Below are positions 41,334 to 53,862 of a stretch of DNA of 64,000 nucleotides, one piece after another; positions within the stretch are counted from its first letter, which is position 1; each line of letters begins with the position of its first letter. The notes beneath the pieces were generated by a model. The model ran no database searches. It had not been told where the DNA came from and was given only the letters and a program-made list of their open reading frames with translations. A program made the translations under genes and the position numbers. Source of the DNA: a plasmid; the sequence record NZ_CP124633.1. One strand, written 5' to 3'.

Positions 41334-41882
41334 CTACATGCCCACGGAACCAGGGCGGGTCTGACTCTGCTGCAGTCGGCCCATGAACTCGGCCTCGGCC
41401 TGGCCCATCTTTTCCGCGCACTCGGCGGCCTGCTTGCCGATGGAGTGGATCAGGCTGATCTGCATGTTGAGGGTGATGCGCTGCAGCTCCATCTCGTAGA
41501 GGTCTTGCAGCAGGTATTCCGGGGTCTTGTCCTGGCGCAGCATTTCCGCCCACACCCCGACGCCCATCCGCCGGGTTGCAATGTGCTGCCAGCGAAGAAA
41601 GGTGGTGCGGGCGGATGTGCGCTGCTCGATGAGTCGGGTGGGCAGTAGAGTGAAGGGTGGGCGACGAACCTGGGCCAGCAGTCCCTGGGCAAGTTCAAGC
41701 AATCCCTGCTCCAGGACTTCGCACTGTTCCGCCAACTGGGCCAGCTCCCCCTTACCTTTAAAAGGCTTTAAAAGGCCTTTTAGTGAGGCACTGTGTTGCA
41801 GCGCCTGGAAGGCAGTTTGTTGCAGTGGGCGGAAGGCACTTTGTTGCAGAGCGCCTTGCTGGTCCTTATCGAGCTGCCGCAT
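41334..41882 (-). CDS. hypothetical protein; N-terminal 40 codons coincide with a DNA repeat array (see 41735..41887), start may be downstream TTG
   Basis: ORF with GAGGA SD at 41882. Confidence 0.45.
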   Translation of the reverse strand: MRQLDKDQQGALQQSAFRPLQQTAFQALQHSASLKGLLKPFKGKGELAQLAEQCEVLEQGLLELAQGLLAQVRRPPFTLLPTRLIEQRTSARTTFLRWQHIATRRMGVGVWAEMLRQDKTPEYLLQDLYEMELQRITLNMQISLIHSIGKQAAECAEKMGQAEAEFMGRLQQSQTRPGSVGM

Positions 41883-41887: not shown

Positions 41888-42616
41888 TCAGTCCTCGAGC
41901 TCGACACGGTCAGCGTCATCATCGGCATCACTGTCAGAGCGGCCCCGGGTGATCGGCGGAGCGAAGTTCGAGCGTCGGGTGCCCTCCAGGATGTCCTGCG
42001 GGATCTCGCCGAACTTCTCGTACATCTTCCGCGCGGCTTCGGCGCGAGCATTGTTTGCGGCGAAGTCGTCGCGAGTAGCGCCCGAGAACTGGTAGCTCTG
42101 GGCCAGACCAAAGAGGCTGCGCAGCACCGACGCACCTTCGTCGAGCCAGACCTCCATGTCGCGGCGACCGACCAGCCCGACGTGCTGGGCCAGCAGGATT
42201 CGACGGGCGAGTTCGTCGTAGTTGGTCAGGAGATAGACTGCCTTGAAGCCGAGAGGGTTGGAGATGAACAACGGGACCTTGACCGGTGTGACGGACAGGT
42301 TCTCGGAGATATCGAGGGTCGCTGGCAGCTTGGCCATGACGTCATCCAGCCGCTGGTCGATGGCCTTGAGTGCGGCTTGGCAGATCTCGACTTTCTCTTC
42401 GATCTGAACCAGCCACCAGTCGGAGTACGGATCGTCCTGTGCCGCCCCGCGGTGCATGCGATTCACGTAGGCGCAGAAGCCGGAGAGGCCGAGGATGCTG
42501 TGCTTGGCATCCGACTTCTGCCTGCCTGTCCAGATGCGGGCGGCGTGATAGGTGTGAAGCGTCAGGGCGACATCGCTGCGGAGAGAGCCGATCTGAAGCC
42601 GATGGGTTTCAGCCAT
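41888..42616 (-). CDS. conserved ICE protein (TIGR03761-like)
   Basis: start MAETHRLQIGS with AAGGAAC SD. Confidence 0.5.
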   Translation of the reverse strand: MAETHRLQIGSLRSDVALTLHTYHAARIWTGRQKSDAKHSILGLSGFCAYVNRMHRGAAQDDPYSDWWLVQIEEKVEICQAALKAIDQRLDDVMAKLPATLDISENLSVTPVKVPLFISNPLGFKAVYLLTNYDELARRILLAQHVGLVGRRDMEVWLDEGASVLRSLFGLAQSYQFSGATRDDFAANNARAEAARKMYEKFGEIPQDILEGTRRSNFAPPITRGRSDSDADDDADRVELED

Positions 42617-42772
42617 GGTGCAGTGTTCCTTTATAGGGAAGGGGTTCGGCCACATCGTGCTGATCGGGGTAGGAGCGCGCAGTAGGAAATACATGGTTCG
42701 CCGCTGGGGTATTTCCGCTGGCAGTGCGGGTTCATCATCATCCCGCTTGCGGCTCATGGAGGTTGGCTTCCT

Positions 42773-42970
42773 TCAGCTCTTGGCCCCCTCGGGGGCGTTG
42801 TCTATCGCTACGTCGACGCAACTTTTGAGCTTGCCGAGCAGCTCGCTCAGTTCCTGCAGCTCCGTAAAGTCGATAGGCCATTCATCGTTGTCGTTGAATA
42901 GGGTTGCCAGCCCTAGCAGCCGCTCGAATTCGAGTTCGTCCATAGGGGCATACACGATTGAGTCGCACAT
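42773..42970 (-). CDS. small acidic protein (65 aa) immediately downstream of the 57-bp array, tentative
   Basis: MCDSIVYAPMDELEFERLLGLATLFNDNDEWPIDFTELQELSELLGKLKSCVDVAIDNAPEGAKS; AGGAA SD; non-repetitive, protein-like. Confidence 0.3.
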   Translation of the reverse strand: MCDSIVYAPMDELEFERLLGLATLFNDNDEWPIDFTELQELSELLGKLKSCVDVAIDNAPEGAKS

Positions 42971-43004
42971 CTTTTCGGTTCCTATTGGGTGGGAGAAGTT
43001 GATA

Positions 43005-43965
43005 GCCGCCACCGGCGCCGAAGTCAGTTCCTGGTGGAGTGGTTCCAGTGGAACCACCCAACTCGCCGCCGGCGCCGAAGTCAGTTCCTGGTGAAGTGGT
43101 TCCAGTGGAACCACCCAACTCGCCGTCGGCGCCGAAGTCAGTTCCTAGTGGAGTGGTTCCAGTGGAACCACCCAACTCGCCGCCGGCGCCGAAGTCAGTT
43201 CCTGGTGAAGTGGTGCCAGTGGCACCACCCAGCTCGTCGACGGCGCCGAGGCCTGGTCCTGGCGGAGTGTTGCCAGTGGCAACACCCAGCTCGCCGTCGG
43301 CGCCGAAGTCAGTTCCTGGTGAAGTGGTTCCAGTGGAACCACCCAACTCGCCACCGGCGCGGAGGTCGGTTCCTGGTGAAGTGGTGCCAGTGGCACCACC
43401 CAGCTCGTCGACGGCGCCGAGGCCTGGTCCTGGCGGAGTGTTGCCAGTGGCAACACCCAGCTCGTCGACGGCGCCGAGGCCTGGTCCTGGCGGAGTGTTG
43501 CCAGTGGCAACACCCAGCTCGCCGCCGGCGCTGGGGTCGGTCCCTGGTGGGGTGATTCCAGTGGAACCACCCAACTCGCCGTCGGCGCCGAAGTCAGTTC
43601 CTGGTGGAGTGGTTCCAGTGGAACCACCCAACTCGCCGCCGGCGCCGAAGTCAGTTCCTGGTGGAGTGGTTCCAGTGGAACCACCCAACTCGCCACCGGC
43701 GCGGAGGTCGGTTCCTGGTGAAGTGGTGCCAGTGGCACCACCCAGCTCGTCGACGGCGCCGAGGCCTGGTCCTGGCGGAGTGTTGCCAGTGGCACCACCC
43801 AGCTCGCCGCCGGCGCTGGGGTCGGTCCCTGGTGGGGTGATTCCAGTGGAATCACCCAACTCCTCGACGGCGCCGAGGTCGATCCTTGGCAGAGTGTTTC
43901 CACTGGAAACACCCAGTTCGCCACCGGTGCCGAGGTCAGGACCTGGCAGAGTGATGCGGGCCGCA
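43005..43965. repeat. ~17 tandem copies of a 57-bp repeat (unit ...GAAGTCAGTTCCTGGTGGAGTGGTTCCAGTGGAACCACCCAACTCGCCGCCGGCGCC); matches the sixteen-57-bp-repeat putative oriV described for pKLC102-type elements
   Basis: period counted directly; two frames on each strand stay open across it. Confidence 0.85.
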
Positions 43966-43999
43966 TCACCAAAAAACACGACGCCCGACCGAGACTTTC

Positions 44000-45331
44000 T
44001 CATGGCTCATCACCCCGCTCGGATGGCACGCTCGATCCGTGCCTGGGCCGAATGAGGTCCTTGAGCCGGCTGAGGACTTCGTTCCCTGTCCGGGTATCCC
44101 CCTTCGGCTGAACCTGAGGCTGTGTAGGCGTTGTGGGGCTTGGTGGTGCCGGAGCACGACTGGGGCGTTCCGCTGCTGGGATGGTTCGTTCAGCCGGTTC
44201 TTCCGGAGCCCAAGAAGCGTTGAACTTTCCCTGGACTGCACGCTGGATGAGCGTCATGAGGTAGCCGAACGGATTACCGACGGTTCCGCCGGCACATCGG
44301 TGCCGCCACTGCTCGATGATGGGTAGCCGAAGCTCCTCGGACACCCGTCGGAGCGCGCTTACCGCCTGGAACCGTTGCTCGCCCTCCAGTCCGTTCAGGA
44401 GATCCTGCCAGTTCGGATGTGCTTCCTCGCGTGTTCGCGGTTGTACTGGTTTTTTAAATACAGAATCTTGTTTGTATGTATACGTACTATATGAGTTCGG
44501 CATCCGAACCAAGGGCGTACTCGGCGGATTCTGTCTGGGTTCGGCATCCGAACTCAGCGGTAAAGCGCATTGCTTGCCGCTGATTTCACTGAGTTCGGCA
44601 TCCGAACTCGGGGTTGAATGAGGTAGATCGGGCAGAGTTCGGATGCCGAACTCTGCCGCTGGATCTGCTTCGAGCTGACTATCGATAGCCCATTGCTGGT
44701 GGTTCAAGCGTCCCTCGAGCTTCTCCAGATGGGTTGGGAGGCGGCGACCAACGTCCGGGTCATCCCTGAACTCCCGCCATGTGACCTGGCCGATTTCGCG
44801 TATGGCTCGGTTGCTGTCGCCGGTGGACTGGCTCAGCAACTGCATGTAGTCGGGGTCCAGCTCCAGGGCTTCTGCCGGGGATACCGGTTCGTCGTGGAGG
44901 ATGTAGACGTTGCCCTGTACTTGCCCGTTGAGGTCGTTGCGCAGGCGACGGCCGAGACTGAGCCAGCGTGTCAACCGAAGGACCTTGAGTGCCTTGGCGA
45001 TGGTTTCGCGCGAGGCGATCTTACCCGGCTGCATGCCGAGATAAGGGCGTAGTTGCTCGTATGTAGGGAACGCGGTCAGCCCGTCGTCGTTGATGAGCAA
45101 GCGGAACACTTGCCAGCAGTTCCGCTCCAGCGGGGTGAGGCGTTTATCCAGCAGCAGGCGCCGAGGAACGGTTTCATGCGGGTTGCCGCTGAAAATGATG
45201 CCGGAATATTGTTGAGCCAGCGGTTCGCCGCTCTCGGCATCAAGCCGCTTCTTAAACAAGTGGGCCTCGAGATGTCCCGAGGCCGAGTCCAGCAGAGTCG
45301 AAATGGGAAAGCGCGACAGCCTCATTGTCAT
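44000..45331 (-). CDS. STY4528-like ICE replication-initiator protein
   Basis: 443-aa ORF, N-terminal wHTH domain, low-complexity linker, conserved C-domain ...NPFGYLMTLIQRAV... Confidence 0.6.
   Translation of the reverse strand: MTMRLSRFPISTLLDSASGHLEAHLFKKRLDAESGEPLAQQYSGIIFSGNPHETVPRRLLLDKRLTPLERNCWQVFRLLINDDGLTAFPTYEQLRPYLGMQPGKIASRETIAKALKVLRLTRWLSLGRRLRNDLNGQVQGNVYILHDEPVSPAEALELDPDYMQLLSQSTGDSNRAIREIGQVTWREFRDDPDVGRRLPTHLEKLEGRLNHQQWAIDSQLEADPAAEFGIRTLPDLPHSTPSSDAELSEISGKQCALPLSSDAEPRQNPPSTPLVRMPNSYSTYTYKQDSVFKKPVQPRTREEAHPNWQDLLNGLEGEQRFQAVSALRRVSEELRLPIIEQWRHRCAGGTVGNPFGYLMTLIQRAVQGKFNASWAPEEPAERTIPAAERPSRAPAPPSPTTPTQPQVQPKGDTRTGNEVLSRLKDLIRPRHGSSVPSERGDEP
44408..44655. promoter_or_regulatory. 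origin-like module inside the rep ORF: 45-bp AT-rich tract (44446..44490) plus four GAGTTCGG-CAT/ATG-CCGAACTC palindromes at 44486, 44539, 44593, 44637
   Basis: read directly; arms 6-11 bp, spacing 53/54/44 bp. Confidence 0.45.
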
Positions 45332-46083
45332 GGTGTCGTATCGCCTTCGGACTGAACCAGGTTGAGGAGTTGCTGCTGCGCAGACTCAATCTCCAAGCGG
45401 GGGCTCTGTGGCGGGTGAGCCGTAGGCGAGGGGAGGTGAGCGCTGACGTTGGCCAGGTAAAGGGTGGCGGGCTTGGCCTGTTCTTTCCTGTTTGGTTGGT
45501 AGAGGCTGTCTTTCAACCAGCTCTGGATGAGAGACCAAACGATGGCGAGGCTGATGAACTCTGGACTGTCTTGTTCGACTCCGGCGTTGACTTCCTCGGT
45601 GAGGATCATCGCGATGTCCAGCAACTCCATGCTGTCCTCGAGGCGGACCTGGTTTTCCTGCATCAGGTGCTCCCAGCGGAACCAAATCTGGCGTTCGGTC
45701 TGTTCGTCAAGTTGCCGCCAGCGACCGCGGCGCGGGTGGATCTCCAGGATCAAGCGCTTGGTGGCGGTGTCCTCCGGCGACAGACCGAAAAAGCTCTGAA
45801 TCATCGTTGTGGTGGCTCCCAGCTTCAGTGCGCGTTCGATCTGCAGCTCTTCCTGCGCGCTGCGCTCGGCTGTGGCCAGGATTTTCTCCATGACGTCGAT
45901 GTTCACTCTGACGTCTACCCAAGAAACCGGGGTATTGGTCAGGATGCTCATGACGGCGGGCTGTTGGAGCTGGGCCAGGATCTCCGGCCGCAGTCCCATC
46001 TCGGCACAACGCCTGAGCTGGCCGTTGCGCAGGTGGTTGATCACCTGCGTCAGGACCGCTTCATTGATCAACGACTTCGACAT
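45328..46083 (-). CDS. DUF2857-like ICE protein
   Basis: 251-aa ORF, ATGA coupling. Confidence 0.5.
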   Translation of the reverse strand: MSKSLINEAVLTQVINHLRNGQLRRCAEMGLRPEILAQLQQPAVMSILTNTPVSWVDVRVNIDVMEKILATAERSAQEELQIERALKLGATTTMIQSFFGLSPEDTATKRLILEIHPRRGRWRQLDEQTERQIWFRWEHLMQENQVRLEDSMELLDIAMILTEEVNAGVEQDSPEFISLAIVWSLIQSWLKDSLYQPNRKEQAKPATLYLANVSAHLPSPTAHPPQSPRLEIESAQQQLLNLVQSEGDTTP

Positions 46084-46110
46084 GTCGATCCCTCCCCTAA
46101 TCGTGCGAAA

Positions 46111-47844
46111 TCACTGGTCGGTAGCTGCTTGCTCGGAGGCGGCCGGCGGCAGCTCAAGGTCAACCAGACGTCGGGCAAGACGAATTATCCGGAACAGTTT
46201 CACCAGGGCTTCGTCATTGAGACGGCCTGCCTGGCTGGATGGCTGATCGCCTGTGGTGGGTTGGCCCAGCAGCAACTGAGCGAGGCCAGCTGAGAATTGA
46301 AACTCGCCCAGGGCGTCGCGGCAGGTCTGCTGGTCGTGTGAGTTCAGGACGACTTGGACCTGGCCGCTGAGCGCTTGAAGCAGCGTGATGAGGTGCAGCG
46401 CTGAATCAGTAATCTCAGGGTCTTCATTGGGCTCGCGATACGTGTAACCCACACCGCCCTGGATCCTGACGATCTCGCCTGGGGCGCCGACGTGCAGAGC
46501 GATTTCTTCAGCCAGATCAGCGATGTGCTGTCGCAGGATTTCGGAGGTGTCGATCGACCGCTCGATGTACCAGAGGTCGGTGATCGGGTGCAGGCCGCCG
46601 ACTTGCACCGGGATTGCGTGAAGAGCTGTTTCTTCGAAGACAGGTAGATGTTCACCCTCGAGAGCGGCCAGACGTTGGCGAGTCTGCAGGATCTTGGTCG
46701 ATACCGGACTCACGATATGGCCTGCCAAGAGCGCTGCATGCTCCTCATCGGTCAGTTGCTGCTGTTGTACAGGTAGCGGCGGAGTTGGCGGGGTAGAGGG
46801 ATTACCCGGGAGGCTATTGGTCTTGGACGTTTGGAGGCCGGCAGCGGGGCTCTGTGATTGTGCTTGTCCAGTAGTCGACGCGGCAGGACTTTCCTGCCCT
46901 ACTGGTGGGATTTCAGGTGGTGCGGCAGGTGCGGGCAGGTCGACCAGAGTGCCCCGGCGCTGTTCCTGCTGGCCGTTGGTGATCTCGAGCAGGATCTGGT
47001 CATAACGCAGGCCCAGGGGCCGCTTCATCTGATCGATGAGCTCGTCCTGGAAGCGGTCGAATATGAACTCGTCAGGGCTACTGTCGAAGATTGCCAGCGT
47101 GTCCTGGAACAGCATTTCAAAGTCAATCCCTTCACCGGCGTATAGACGTGCCCAGCAGGAGGATGCCGACTTTCTGAGTGACAGGAGTTTTTCGATTTGC
47201 GGTTTACCGAGCCCTGAATACAGCATCACAGGGATGGCTGGCAGCAGTATCTCAACGGCATCCAGCATCTTGCTGATGTGTGAATGTGAAACAGGATAGC
47301 CGTCATCGGTGAGCTTCCGTGACAGCTCGCGGATGCCGACCGGTTCGCCTTTCTCCTCCTCATACCAGGCTTTCGCTTTCTGAATGCCCACGGCTCGCTC
47401 GATGAACTTGAGGTCACCCTTCAGATCGTTCTCAGCCAGGTGACCAGTCAGCGCGATGATTTCGCCGCGCTGCTTGTCCCAGGGCCTGAACAGGCAGTTG
47501 AAGCGGAAGTAACGTTCGTCGCCGGTTTCTTTGTAGAGCTCGTTGAGAATTTCCAGGCGAGTGTTTCCGCCGTTGCGAATGCGGTATTTGTCTTCCCCAG
47601 GGCGTCGAGTCACTGGTGGCGGCGTATCGAGGCCTCGATGCCGGATCGATTCTTTCAACTCATCGTATTTCGGGTTTCGAGTGGTCCGGGGGTTGTCGTG
47701 CCAGGGGAGGACCTGGTCGAGTGTCAGCACCATGGGCGTGTCGCTGATCGGGTCCGACAACTGTTCCAGAACGGGCGGCGCGGTGAAACCAGGGGCAAGT
47801 AGCCGGTCTTTCAGATCTTGCGGGTTGATCTTGGCCATACTCAT
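46111..47844 (-). CDS. parB: ParB-family partition / nuclease-domain protein (PFGI-1 class)
   Basis: 577 aa, N-terminal ParB-like domain ...KYRIRNGGNTRLEILNELY. Confidence 0.75.
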   Translation of the reverse strand: MSMAKINPQDLKDRLLAPGFTAPPVLEQLSDPISDTPMVLTLDQVLPWHDNPRTTRNPKYDELKESIRHRGLDTPPPVTRRPGEDKYRIRNGGNTRLEILNELYKETGDERYFRFNCLFRPWDKQRGEIIALTGHLAENDLKGDLKFIERAVGIQKAKAWYEEEKGEPVGIRELSRKLTDDGYPVSHSHISKMLDAVEILLPAIPVMLYSGLGKPQIEKLLSLRKSASSCWARLYAGEGIDFEMLFQDTLAIFDSSPDEFIFDRFQDELIDQMKRPLGLRYDQILLEITNGQQEQRRGTLVDLPAPAAPPEIPPVGQESPAASTTGQAQSQSPAAGLQTSKTNSLPGNPSTPPTPPLPVQQQQLTDEEHAALLAGHIVSPVSTKILQTRQRLAALEGEHLPVFEETALHAIPVQVGGLHPITDLWYIERSIDTSEILRQHIADLAEEIALHVGAPGEIVRIQGGVGYTYREPNEDPEITDSALHLITLLQALSGQVQVVLNSHDQQTCRDALGEFQFSAGLAQLLLGQPTTGDQPSSQAGRLNDEALVKLFRIIRLARRLVDLELPPAASEQAATDQ

Positions 47845-48130: not shown

Positions 48131-49021
48131 TCAGTACTGAGCGACCGTGGTCTGGAATGAGGGCGATGGAGACGCATTACTGGCCTGGAAGAAATCCAGT
48201 TGTGCCAACCCCTCAAGCGCTGCGCTGTTGAGCCAGAGGCGTTCGATTCGCTCTCTGGAGCCGTCTGCATAGGCGTGGCGGTCGACTCTGTGCCAGGTGG
48301 TGTAGAGCTCGTCGTAGAGTGGGCAGGGATATCCGGAGAGCACCACCATGCCGCGCAGCCGCTTGAGGAATGCCGCCAGCTCCTTGTGCTGGTTGTCGTC
48401 CAGTTCGTACCGGTACGACTTGCCTGTGGCGTTGTGGCGCACCTTCGTGCTGCGGGTCGAGTGGACATAGGGCGGATCCACGTAGTGCAGCGTATTCGGC
48501 CGGTCGTGATATTCCATCAGCGCGAGGGCGTCGCGGTTTTCGATCACCACGCCCTGCAGGCGTTCTGTTATCGCGGTCAGCGTGTCGGGGTAGTTGCGCC
48601 AGTCCAGTGCAGGTCCGGTACCGGATCTGGTCGAGGTTGAGCGGAACCCTGTACGTTCGCCGGACGCAGCTGCGGTACCGAAACCTTGCAAGCTTCGGAT
48701 TACCATCCGCCGCGCGCGCTCGAGCGGATCGGACGTTTCCGCGTAGCTGGCTTCGAACTCTTCCCGGGCAAACGGGGTAAGCGCCAGGGCCTGGCGCAGT
48801 TGCTCACCGTGATCCCGCGCGACGCGGAACAGGTTCACCACGTCCCCGTCGAGGTCGTTATAGATCTCGGCGTAGCTGCGGGCTTTCCGGAGCAGGACGG
48901 AGGCTGCGCCGCCGAAGGGCTCGACGTAAGTGTGATGTGGCGCCAGGTGCTGGATGATCCAGGGAGCAAGTTTCCACTTGCCTCCGTGGTAGCGCAGGAT
49001 TGGGCGACGAACCCCTTTCAT
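48131..49021 (-). CDS. DNA adenine methyltransferase, D12/Dam class (orphan)
   Basis: N-terminal [12 protein letters not shown], motif IV YVDPPY. Confidence 0.75.
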
Positions 49022-52518: not shown

Positions 52519-53862
52519 TCATGCAAGAGCTCCCTGCCAAGTTGGTGCAAGGTCGGCGAAGCGGGTCTGGTTGGCGATGAAGGCGGCGCGGACGGTGCCG
52601 ATCGGGCCGTTGCGGTACTTGCCGATGATGATTTCGGCGATGCCCTTGGCCTCGGTGTTGGGGTGGTAGACCTCGTCGCGGTACACGAACATGATCACGT
52701 CCGCGTCCTGCTCGATTGCGCCGCTCTCACGCAGGTCTGCGTTGTTCGGTCGCTTGTTCGGCCGGTTCTCCAGGCTGCGATTGAGCTGGGACAGGGCCAC
52801 GACGGGGCAATCCATCTCCTTGGCCAGTGCTTTCAGCGAGCGGGAGATCTCCGAGATCTCGGTGGCTCGGTTTTCCAGGCCTGGGCAGCGCATCAGCTGC
52901 AGGTAGTCGACCAGGATCAGTACGGGGTGGCCGTACTTCCTGGCTGCACGGCGAACCTTGGCGCGCAGCTCTGTCGGCGTCAGGTTGCCCTGGTCGTTGA
53001 TGACCAGTCGGCTGCCATAGTCGTTTATGCGCTGGATCGCGACGGTCAGCCTGGGCCAATCCTCCTCTTGCAGTTGGCCCTTCATCAGCTTGCCAAGGTC
53101 AAGGTGGCCGAGCAGGGCAGCAAGCCTGAACAGCAGCTGCTCTGCTGGCATTTCCATGCTGTAAACCTGGACAGACTTCTGTTGGTCGCTCTGCAGCGCG
53201 GCGTCGATCAAGTTGAGGGCAAACGACGTTTTGCCCATCGAGGGACGGGCACCGACGATGATGAGATCCGACTTCTGTAGTCCGCCGGAGAGCTCGTCGA
53301 GATCCTTCAGGCCTGTCGGGACCCCCGTTACCGTCACGTTGTTGTTGAAGCGGTAATCGATGGTGTCGACGATCTTCGCGAGGCCCTTGTTGATATCGAC
53401 AAAGTCGGACTTGTGCTGATCTTGGCCGAGGGCGAACAGCTTCTGCTCGATCTCCTCCTGAACCTCACAGGGATTCGCCTGGTGGTTCGAGGCGGTTCTG
53501 GTGCAGTGGTGCCCGAGAGACATCAACTGCCGCAGGTGCGCCCGATCGCGAACGATCTGCGCGTAAGCCTCGATATTGGCCACGGAGGGCGTGTTGTCAG
53601 CGAGCTGGCCGAGGTAGGCCAGCCCACCGGCTTCTGGAAGGTCTTCGATCGCTTCCGACACTGTCACGACGTCAAACGGGGCGTCCTTCGCGGCCAACTC
53701 GCTGATGGCGGTGAAGATCAGCCGATGTTCATGCCGGAAGAAGTCCTCCTTCTGCAGGTGATCGCCGACAATGTCCCATGCCGCGTTGTCCAGCATCAGA
53801 CCGCCGAGTACCCCTTGCTCCGCCTCGACGGAGTGCGGCGGCGTGAGTTCCAGAACACTCAC
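52519..53862 (-). CDS. dnaB: replicative DNA helicase DnaB
   Basis: N-domain HSVEAEQGVLGGLMLD, Walker A GARPSMGKTS, RecA-like core. Confidence 0.9.
   Translation of the reverse strand: MSVLELTPPHSVEAEQGVLGGLMLDNAAWDIVGDHLQKEDFFRHEHRLIFTAISELAAKDAPFDVVTVSEAIEDLPEAGGLAYLGQLADNTPSVANIEAYAQIVRDRAHLRQLMSLGHHCTRTASNHQANPCEVQEEIEQKLFALGQDQHKSDFVDINKGLAKIVDTIDYRFNNNVTVTGVPTGLKDLDELSGGLQKSDLIIVGARPSMGKTSFALNLIDAALQSDQQKSVQVYSMEMPAEQLLFRLAALLGHLDLGKLMKGQLQEEDWPRLTVAIQRINDYGSRLVINDQGNLTPTELRAKVRRAARKYGHPVLILVDYLQLMRCPGLENRATEISEISRSLKALAKEMDCPVVALSQLNRSLENRPNKRPNNADLRESGAIEQDADVIMFVYRDEVYHPNTEAKGIAEIIIGKYRNGPIGTVRAAFIANQTRFADLAPTWQGALA

What the first reader, a model, noticed from the sequence alone, without database searches (positions are those of the whole stretch)
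44408..44655. Origin-like module embedded inside the replication-protein ORF
A 45-bp A+T-rich tract (ttttttaaatacagaatcttgtttgtatgtatacgtactatat) lies within the low-complexity linker of the STY4528-like Rep gene. It is followed by four copies of the palindrome GAGTTCGG-CAT-CCGAACTC at roughly 54-bp spacing. The last copy is inverted (ATG centre) with 11-bp arms. The ORF stays open across the module. The encoded peptide is repetitive (EFGIRT three times). A DNA-unwinding-element plus iteron layout inside rep is typical of some plasmid origins. It is an alternative or additional candidate origin to the 57-bp array next door.
Basis: seen in the sequence. Interest (0 to 1): 0.7.

Follow-up and report, generated by a model that had tools for sequence, protein, structure and literature searches.

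The report
Candidate replication origin inside its initiator gene
Four palindromic DNA boxes and an easily melted A+T-rich core lie inside the coding sequence of a mobile-element "replication protein" gene, are conserved as DNA across a large family of integrative conjugative elements, and are the best candidate for that family's long-postulated but never mapped replication origin.

Summary
The palindromes and the A+T tract are real and far beyond chance, though several details in the finding are wrong. The gene is on the minus strand. Spacing is 44/54/44. EFGIRT is encoded once, not three times. The locus is the pUM505/pKLC102-type replication and regulation module of the PAPI-1/PFGI-1/ICEclc/SPI-7/ICEHin1056 element family.

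Selection acts on the DNA, not the protein. In six genes only 66% identical, all 48 arm bases are invariant, including 16 of 16 third codon positions (14% gene-wide). The boxes are read in three frames and their centres vary.

Two to five TTCGG-N3-CCGAA boxes, mostly 44/45 bp apart, occur at the same place in relatives from Alpha-, Beta- and Gammaproteobacteria. A GTAC/TACGTA-flanked A+T core follows them. They encode a predicted disordered linker.

The protein's N-domain model is closest to RepA_N initiators, whose origins also lie in the linker-coding centre of rep. No replication or binding data exist.

The same palindromes were already described in silico for PFGI-1 (2009). One ICEclc copy was tested as a ParB-like BisD site in 2025 and was negative.

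Verdict: a conserved cis-acting DNA element, most likely an intragenic origin. It is a new member of a known kind.

The parts
44000..45331 (-). STY4528-family 'pathogenicity island replication protein' gene (443-aa ORF; RefSeq homologues start at the third codon, 45325). It has an N-terminal winged-helix domain (aa ~55-198), a disordered linker (aa ~199-306) and a helical C-domain (aa ~308-367).
   Evidence: NCBIfam NF040582, E 3e-111, 372 bits against a cut-off of 130. 100% amino-acid match to pUM505 and 96% to pKLC102. AF2 model with per-domain confidence.
44631..44657 (.). Box 1 in gene order: GGCAGAGTTCGG-ATG-CCGAACTCTGCC, 12-bp arms. Read as A-E-F-G-I-R-T-L.
44591..44609 (.). Box 2: GAGTTCGG-CAT-CCGAACTC, 8-bp arms, 44 bp from box 1. 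Read as P-S-S-D-A-E-L-S.
44535..44557 (.). Box 3: CTGGGTTCGG-CAT-CCGAACTCAG, 10-bp arms with one mismatch, 54 bp from box 2. Read as L-S-S-D-A-E-P-R.
44493..44509 (.). Box 4: GAGTTCGG-CAT-CCGAAC, 44 bp from box 3. Read as V-R-M-P-N-S. One arm (CCGAAC on the coding strand, 44495-44500) begins the 24-nt invariant run.
44477..44500 (.). Longest invariant nucleotide run of the whole gene among six divergent homologues: CCGAACTCATATAGTACGTATACA on the coding strand. It contains TACGTA (44481-44486), GTAC (44484-44487) and GTATAC (44478-44483).
   Evidence: (24-nt run; the next longest is 8 nt)
44443..44492 (.). A+T-rich core bracketed by GTAC motifs at 44443-44446 and 44484-44487; candidate DNA-unwinding element. 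Encodes ...NSYSTYTYKQDSVFKKPVQ... in the disordered linker.
   Evidence: GC 21-22%, the lowest 45-mer in the window. The 40-mer at 44452 is the least stable of 64 kb. GTAC/TACGTA enrichment at this position in 120 homologues.
42893..44000 (.). Neighbouring array of 57-bp repeats, the published 'oriV' repeats of pKLC102. Each repeat carries an odd-centred palindrome GTGNNNCCA-N-TGGNNNCAC. It is context and probably a separate function (a ParB/BisD loading array).
   Evidence: Positional analogy to the ICEclc bisS core CTATCCCCaGGGGATAG in L011/L012 and PMC12409273.
45328..47844 (-). Upstream partners in the same transcriptional direction: a ParB-family (BisD-like) gene at 46111..47844 and a DUF2857 (BisC-like) gene at 45328..46083.
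   Evidence: TIGR03764 E 3e-121; PF11198 E 7e-44
52519..53862 (-). Element-encoded DnaB-type replicative helicase; best match is the SPI-7-type island model, below its cut-off. It is the likely machinery loaded at the origin.
   Evidence: NF040583 E 1e-179, 598 bits, below its 655-bit cut-off. TIGR00665 DnaB 502 bits against 385.

Best explanation
The module is a cis-acting double-stranded DNA element overprinted on the linker-coding part of the STY4528-family gene. It is most likely the vegetative origin of the pKLC102/pUM505-type element. Inferred mechanism: dimers of the element's own STY4528 protein bind the four dyad boxes (consensus CTGAGTTCGG-N3-CCGAACTCAG, 44/54/44 bp apart) through the RepA_N/DnaD-like winged-helix N-domain. 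The resulting nucleoprotein complex melts the adjacent GTAC-bracketed A+T core. The conserved C-domain then recruits replication machinery, plausibly the element-encoded DnaB helicase. The peptide encoded by the module is only a flexible tether, as in pSK41 Rep. Shown here: the DNA-level selection, the family-wide conservation, the location in a predicted disordered linker, the extreme meltability, and the fold similarity. Inferred: who binds the boxes, and that replication starts here.
Confidence: 0.55

Rival explanations
1. The module is a protein-binding array with a non-replicative role. One option is an operator or roadblock by which an element-encoded regulator controls expression of this gene and the downstream inrR-ssb genes; candidates are STY4528 acting as a transcription factor, the Arc-like protein, PFL_4669/InrR, or BisC. 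The other option is an accessory centromere or ParB-related site.
For: Dyad symmetry with a free 3-bp centre is the classical operator form. The gene sits in the ICEclc bistability operon alpA-...-bisD-bisC-orf96323 (PMC7423338). Antar et al. treated the ICEclc copy as a candidate ParB-like site, bisS-3 (PMC12409273). ICEclc-type elements keep two boxes although their known replication is relaxase-driven (PMC6561031).
Against: mCherry-BisD formed no foci on bisS-3. BisC ChIP peaks lie at promoters with a different 15-nt motif (PMC12409273). There is no sigma-70-like promoter in 43900-45400, and the ICEclc inrR-operon transcription start maps just downstream of orf96323, not in its linker (PMC2892462). 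The boxes occur nowhere else in the element. An operator model does not explain the tightly linked, equally conserved GTAC-bracketed A+T core.
Confidence: 0.17
2. The element works as single-stranded DNA. The four palindromes extrude as hairpins on the transferred or displaced strand. They would act as a single-strand origin or primosome-assembly site for complementary-strand synthesis after conjugation or rolling-circle replication.
For: The stems are 8-12 bp with 3-nt loops. The family transfers as ssDNA and, in ICEclc, replicates from oriT (PMC6561031). Single-strand origins are known in other integrative conjugative elements (reviewed in PMC5812530). Strand displacement was suggested for pKLC102 (cited in PMC2647930). 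The uniform GC skew is compatible with unidirectional or rolling-circle replication.
Against: The stems are invariant in sequence rather than covarying across lineages that differ 35-70% elsewhere, which points to base-specific readout. Loop sequences, usually important in single-strand origins, vary freely. Fixed 44/45-bp spacing is not needed for independent hairpins. The RepA_N-like protein link has no role in this model.
Confidence: 0.13
3. Selection acts on mRNA structure. Four hairpins in the linker-coding RNA would control translation, stability or processing of the STY4528 transcript, or an antisense RNA would control copy number.
For: The palindromes would fold in RNA of either strand. 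Antisense control is common in plasmid rep genes (PMC5703833).
Against: No Rfam family matches; only sub-threshold microRNA-hairpin noise appears. No promoter-like site exists on either strand. Arm sequences are invariant with little compensatory variation within lineages. The conserved A+T/GTAC block is not structured.
Confidence: 0.05
4. The repeats reflect a repetitive protein linker or chance, with no function in the nucleic acid.
For: The region encodes a low-complexity, predicted disordered segment.
Against: The same DNA box is read in three frames as three different peptides. Third codon positions in the arms are invariant in 16 of 16 cases. 0 of 100 shuffles give four copies. The residues that appear conserved in the linker (E246, S261, E264, R276, P278) are those dictated by the boxes.
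Confidence: 0.01

Closest known systems
Putative oriV of PFGI-1 (Pseudomonas protegens Pf-5; Mavrodi et al. 2009, PMC2647930) and the postulated oriV of pKLC102
   Same: This is the same element in a sister island. Its A+T-rich first half has four copies of the palindrome CTGAGTTCGGAATCCGAACTCAGT. A G+C-rich array of direct repeats follows, each repeat containing an inverted repeat, just upstream of the PFL_4669 homologue. It was interpreted as oriV from sequence alone.
   Different: That paper stated that PFGI-1 encodes no Rep protein and treated the palindromes and the array as one intergenic-style origin. Here the palindromes are shown to lie inside the STY4528-family ORF. They are under frame-independent DNA selection, universal in the family, and separable from the array, which varies in unit (57, 46 or 36 bp, or single sites).
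ICEclc 'bisS-3' candidate site in orf96323 (Antar et al. 2025, PMC12409273)
   Same: CTTCGGAtTCCGAAG in the ICEclc gene at the same position in the conserved gene order. It is the TTCGG-N3-CCGAA box of the ICEclc-type loci L011-L014.
   Different: It was considered only as a ParB-like BisD loading site and gave no BisD foci. Neither its second copy 44 bp away, nor the A+T/GTAC core, nor a replication role was discussed in the passages I read.
RepA_N replicons of Firmicutes (pSK41, pTZ2162, pAD1) and V. cholerae PLE RepA (PMC5703833, PMC7145576)
   Different: There is no sequence-level RepA_N signal. The boxes are 44-54 bp apart rather than tandem. The C-domain is conserved across genera rather than genus-specific. 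The host range is Proteobacteria, and the element carries its own DnaB.
RepC of repABC plasmids (Cervantes-Rivera et al. 2011, PMC3155836)
   Same: oriV lies inside the initiator gene at a large A+T-rich region. Silent mutations that change the A+T content abolish replication. Weak RP-C_C hits recur in the STY4528 C-domain (15 of 59 members).
   Different: RepC origins have no iterons or palindrome arrays. The Pfam hits are all below threshold.
ParB-parS and BisD-bisS loading sites
   Same: These are palindromic sites inside coding sequence next to a parB-family gene.
   Different: The experimentally defined bisS is GAGCTATCCCCnGGGGATAGCTC, with an odd centre and 11-bp arms. The neighbouring 57-bp-array palindromes resemble that class. 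The TTCGG boxes have a 3-bp centre and failed the BisD focus test in ICEclc.

Membership tests
STY4528 family (NCBIfam NF040582) | Whole-protein score above the curated cut-off for the equivalog model | tested here: met
   372.5 bits against a cut-off of 130, E 3e-111; model positions 1-323 cover aa 43-372
pKLC102/PFGI-1-type putative oriV (literature definition) | Four copies of the ~23-bp palindrome CTGAGTTCGG-N3-CCGAACTCAG in an A+T-rich stretch | tested here: met
   compared with the sequence quoted in PMC2647930
pKLC102/PFGI-1-type putative oriV (literature definition) | An adjacent G+C-rich array of direct repeats, each with an inverted repeat, upstream of the PFL_4669 homologue | tested here: met
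   57-bp array at 42893-44000 with 16 palindromes; PFL_4669/AcaB gene at 41888..42757
pKLC102/PFGI-1-type putative oriV (literature definition) | Supports autonomous replication | not testable with these tools
   No experimental mapping was found in the papers searched; still described as 'postulated' in 2020 (PMC7685784)
RepA_N-type replicon | RepA_N domain (Pfam PF06970) in the initiator | tested here: not met
   No Pfam hit at E up to 10, none among 59 relatives, and no PDB sequence hit
RepA_N-type replicon | N-terminal domain with the RepA_N/DnaD winged-helix fold | tested here: inconclusive
RepA_N-type replicon | Origin with repeated Rep boxes in the central, linker-coding part of rep | tested here: inconclusive
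   The layout is met: the boxes and A+T core encode aa ~222-296 of a predicted disordered linker. Origin function was not tested.
RepA_N-type replicon | C-terminal domain specific to the host genus and binding the host primase | tested here: not met
   The C-domain is conserved from Haemophilus to Tistrella: tblastn coverage reaches aa ~370 and A365 is an invariant column. Primase binding cannot be tested.
repABC RepC | RP-C / RP-C_C Pfam domains above threshold | tested here: not met
   Only sub-threshold RP-C_C hits, best E 0.01, in 15 of 59 members
Classical iteron origin (Rep_3 type) | Tandem direct repeats of about 20 bp plus DnaA boxes and an A+T-rich unwinding element | tested here: not met
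   The sites are dyads 44-54 bp apart, and there is no DnaA box with up to 1 mismatch in 43800-45500. An A+T-rich element is present.
ParB/BisD loading site (parS / bisS) | Bound by the cognate ParB-family protein, which nucleates foci or spreading | not testable with these tools
   In the literature, the ICEclc counterpart bisS-3 gave no mCherry-BisD foci (PMC12409273). The pKLC102-type ParB has not been tested.

The most novel reading that the evidence does not exclude
STY4528-family proteins would be the proteobacterial counterpart of Gram-positive RepA_N initiators. The true oriV of the whole PAPI-1/pKLC102/PFGI-1/SPI-7/ICEHin1056/ICEclc superfamily would then be the box-plus-GTAC/A+T module hidden in the linker-coding part of the initiator gene. 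The repeat array long labelled 'oriV iterons' would instead be a ParB/BisD (bisS-type) loading array. That would relocate the origin, reassign the array, and show that overprinting an origin on a rep linker arose, or was retained, across phyla.
Probability: 0.4. Interest if true: 0.7.

Novelty: new member of a known kind. Interest (0 to 1): 0.5.

Why it matters
This family of integrative conjugative elements carries virulence and resistance cargo in P. aeruginosa, Salmonella Typhi, Klebsiella and Haemophilus. Some members persist as multicopy episomes. Their vegetative origin has been only 'postulated' for two decades.

The comparative evidence narrows the candidate to about 220 bp, with defined protein-binding boxes and a defined initiator domain. 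That makes the question directly testable by mini-replicon, EMSA and ChIP experiments.

It also gives a clean natural example of DNA-level selection overprinted on a disordered protein linker: the same box is read in three frames. Finally, it suggests that the adjacent repeat array should be re-examined as a ParB/BisD loading site.

Tried and rejected
1. ParB/BisD loading site. Rejected as the leading idea because the ICEclc counterpart gave no BisD foci (PMC12409273).

2. Internal promoter in the A+T tract. The sigma-70 scan found none on either strand. The ICEclc inrR transcription start maps outside the linker.

3. Known RNA family. Only sub-threshold microRNA-like hairpin noise appeared.

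4. GC-skew mapping of the origin. Skew is uniformly positive across the window and across the 88-kb pZDHY95-VIM-2, tracking gene orientation, so it is uninformative.

5. DnaA boxes and IHF consensus near the module. None were found.

6. Sequence-level links to solved structures or Pfam Rep families. None were significant. Foldseek against the PDB gave only generic winged-helix hits with E of 0.26 or more.

7. Dispersed-operator hypothesis. The boxes occur only here in 64 kb.

8. Correlating box subtype with protein residues to identify the binder. Not attempted, because box types coincide with clades and are phylogenetically confounded.

9. The genome-contig scan with the single protein gave only six Pseudomonas loci. 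Breadth came instead from the plasmid collection and a metagenome pattern scan.

Full report
**What is in the sequence**

The 15-nt core GTTCGG-CAT-CCGAAC occurs exactly at 44495, 44539 and 44593, and with an ATG centre at 44637. No other copy with up to 2 mismatches exists in the 64-kb window, even with the centre left free, and 0 of 100 shuffles reach four copies. Start-to-start spacing is 44, 54 and 44 bp. The extended arms are 12, 8, 10 (one mismatch) and 6-8 bp.

The quoted A+T tract is at 44450-44492. It is 43 nt long with 21% GC. The 40-mer at 44452 is the thermodynamically least stable of the whole window: dG -43.4, against a mean of -61.7 and sd of 3.5 for 42000-47000.

The only long ORF across the module is on the minus strand, 44000..45331, 443 aa. 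In that frame the four boxes are read as EFGIRT, SSDAE, SSDAE and VRMPN, so three different frames are used.

**Context**

The ORF is an STY4528-family 'pathogenicity island replication protein' (NF040582, E 3e-111). It is 100% identical to the pUM505 protein and 96% identical to that of pKLC102. On the minus strand the gene order is:
- dnaB (best match the SPI-7-type island helicase model)
- yejK
- a Dam-like methyltransferase
- arc
- parB-family gene (BisD-like)
- DUF2857 gene (BisC-like)
- STY4528
- the 57-bp repeat array
- PFL_4669/AcaB (InrR-like)
- a 182-aa ORF (41334..41882) at the position where pKLC102 has its DUF3158 gene
- a Rha-family gene
- ssb
- topA

This is the replication, partition and regulation module of the PAPI-1/pKLC102/PFGI-1/ICEclc/SPI-7/ICEHin1056 element family.

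**Selection acts on the DNA**

I made a codon alignment of six Pseudomonas homologues with mean pairwise nucleotide identity 66% and protein identity 53-60% to the window protein.
- All 48 GTTCGG/CCGAAC arm columns are invariant. That includes 16 of 16 third codon positions, against 14% of third positions gene-wide and 8 of 122 in the strongly conserved N-domain.
- The centre triplets are invariant in 1 of 12 columns, and the inter-box spacers in 13 of 73.
- The longest invariant nucleotide run in the whole gene is 24 nt: CCGAACTCATATAGTACGTATACA (44477-44500). It links box 4 to the A+T core. The next longest run is 8 nt.

Because the same box is read in three frames, the constraint cannot be on the protein. 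The few near-invariant residues in the linker (E246, S261, E264, R276, P278) are by-products of the boxes.

**Breadth across the family**

Eleven distant loci from the plasmid collection were examined. Ten have 31-43% protein identity and come from Stutzerimonas, an ICEclc-like P. veronii element, two Ralstonia, the alphaproteobacterium Tistrella, Serratia, Duffyella, Erwinia, Klebsiella and Salmonella SGI4. Each of the ten has 1-3 perfect TTCGG-N3-CCGAA boxes, or 2-4 allowing one mismatch. All lie 650-850 nt into the gene, with 44/45-bp spacing recurrent, and no box with fewer than two mismatches lies elsewhere in those 5.6-7-kb loci. ICEHin1056, the eleventh, carries three GAGTTCC-N-GGAACTC variants at the same place.

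A blind scan of metagenome contigs for two boxes 44/45 bp apart returned 120 loci. Of these, 113 lie inside an ORF matching the family profile, and the other seven are unrelated repeats. Among 107 distinct genes, 80 have two boxes, 12 have three, 11 have four and 4 have five. Spacings are 44 (113 cases), 45 (17), 54 (12) and 33 (6), though the 44/45 class was imposed by the query.

The flanking pair -1/+13 covaries (G-C 134, C-G 75, T-A 13 of 256 distinct boxes), which preserves the dyad.

Downstream of the last box, 111 of 120 genes carry at least two GTAC motifs within 90 nt. GTAC density there is 3.98 per 100 nt against 0.14 in the rest of the gene. TACGTA density is 1.77 against 0.006. GC drops to 0.46 from 0.62.

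**The protein**

The AF2 model (43-sequence alignment) has three parts:
- a confident N-domain at aa ~55-198, pLDDT mostly 75-94, with a winged helix;
- a linker at aa 199-306, mostly below pLDDT 50 (217-306 continuously), which is what the module encodes;
- a confident helical C-domain at aa 308-367.

There is no sequence-level link. However, sub-threshold hits to RP-C_C (the RepC C-terminal region) recur in 15 of 59 diverse members and to HTH_36 in 6 of 59.

**What the literature already says**

- Mavrodi et al. 2009 described the putative oriV of PFGI-1. Its A+T-rich first half has four copies of CTGAGTTCGGAATCCGAACTCAGT. Its G+C-rich second half has 46-bp repeats. The authors stated that PFGI-1 encodes no Rep protein (PMC2647930).
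- The pKLC102 origin is still described as 'postulated' (PMC7685784).
- Antar et al. 2025 noted CTTCGGAtTCCGAAG in ICEclc orf96323 as the candidate site bisS-3. mCherry-BisD formed no foci on it. The true loading sites are GAGCTATCCCCnGGGGATAGCTC, in inrR and ssb (PMC12409273).
- Replication of excised ICEclc depends mainly on TraI and oriT1, with a hint of 'further alternative replication mechanisms' (PMC6561031).
- In pSK41, Rep binds four Rep boxes in the centre of its own gene, and the encoded linker is dispensable (PMC5703833).
- In repABC plasmids, oriV lies in an A+T-rich region inside repC (PMC3155836).

**Interpretation**

The best-supported reading is a double-stranded cis element, an intragenic origin of the RepA_N/RepC style. 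STY4528 dimers would bind the dyad boxes. The neighbouring GTAC-bracketed A+T core would melt. The C-domain would recruit the replisome, plausibly through the element's own DnaB.

The selection, location, meltability and fold resemblance are shown. The identity of the binder and the initiation of replication are inferred. I put this at about 0.55.

Rivals are:
- a non-replicative operator or accessory partition site (0.17);
- a single-stranded hairpin element such as a single-strand origin (0.13);
- an mRNA or antisense structure (0.05);
- a protein-level repeat or chance (0.01, refuted).

Points against the origin model are the absence of any functional data, the relaxase-dependent replication of ICEclc, the lack of DnaA boxes and of a skew switch, and the modest strength of the structural link.

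**The array next door**

The 57-bp repeats each hold an odd-centred palindrome, GTGNNNCCA-N-TGGNNNCAC, with covarying arms. The same slot in ICEclc-like loci holds the bisS core CTATCCCCaGGGGATAG. In other lineages the slot holds arrays of 36-bp or 57-bp units, or single sites.

By position and form, the array is more likely the ParB/BisD loading region than a set of iterons. If so, the two candidate origins would be two different functions. This is an inference that I did not test further.

**Novelty and score**

The palindromes and their origin interpretation are published for a sister element, so the finding is not new in kind. Five points are added here:
- the module lies inside the STY4528 ORF;
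- it is under frame-independent DNA selection;
- it is universal across the family, with conserved 44/45-bp spacing;
- it includes a conserved GTAC/TACGTA-flanked core;
- the encoded protein resembles RepA_N initiators, which use the same gene-embedded origin design.

I rate it a new member of a known kind, interest 0.5. The more ambitious reading relocates the family's oriV and reassigns the array. It has a probability of about 0.4 and would merit about 0.7.

Noticed in passing
window 42893-44000: The 57-bp repeat array carries 16 odd-centred palindromes, GTGNNNCCA-N-TGGNNNCAC, with covarying arms, plus GTGATGCGGcCCGCATCAC. The same slot in ICEclc-like loci (L011, L012) holds the core of the experimentally defined BisD loading site bisS. 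The array may be a ParB/BisD loading or centromere-like array rather than oriV iterons.
   Followed up: partly
window 42882-44003 (minus strand): A 373-aa ORF made of GGELGG.TG.TPPGTD repeats runs through the array. It is probably an artefact of a repeat unit that is a multiple of three (57 = 19 x 3). No CDS is listed there for pKLC102 in the plasmid collection's incomplete gene table.
   Followed up: partly
window 44443-44487 and 120 related genes: GTAC and TACGTA motifs are enriched about 28-fold and about 300-fold in the 90 nt after the last box, across the whole family. They bracket the A+T core. The reason for this particular motif is unexplained.
   Followed up: partly
window 44000-44410 (C-domain of the protein); alignment A2: Sub-threshold Pfam hits to RP-C_C (the RepC C-terminal region) recur in 15 of 59 diverse family members and to HTH_36 in 6 of 59. 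This hints at a remote link to repABC RepC, another initiator with its origin inside its own gene.
   Followed up: partly
window 48131-49021 (minus strand): A Dam-like D12-class adenine methyltransferase gene sits between yejK and arc, as in pUM505. pKLC102 lacks it at this position.
   Followed up: no
window 44409-44416: An extra half-box, CAGTTCGG, lies on the far side of the A+T core. It is present only in the pKLC102/pUM505 lineage and not in the more distant Pseudomonas homologues.
   Followed up: no
L141 7774-8259 (pZDHY95-VIM-2): A second family named by NCBI as an 'STY4534 family ICE replication protein' is annotated in a related 88-kb circular element. That element lists no conventional plasmid Rep gene. 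I did not check whether the window has a homologue.
   Followed up: no
whole window; L141+L142: GC skew is uniformly positive on one strand across 64 kb of the window and around the whole 88-kb relative, following gene orientation. No origin or terminus signature is visible anywhere.
   Followed up: yes
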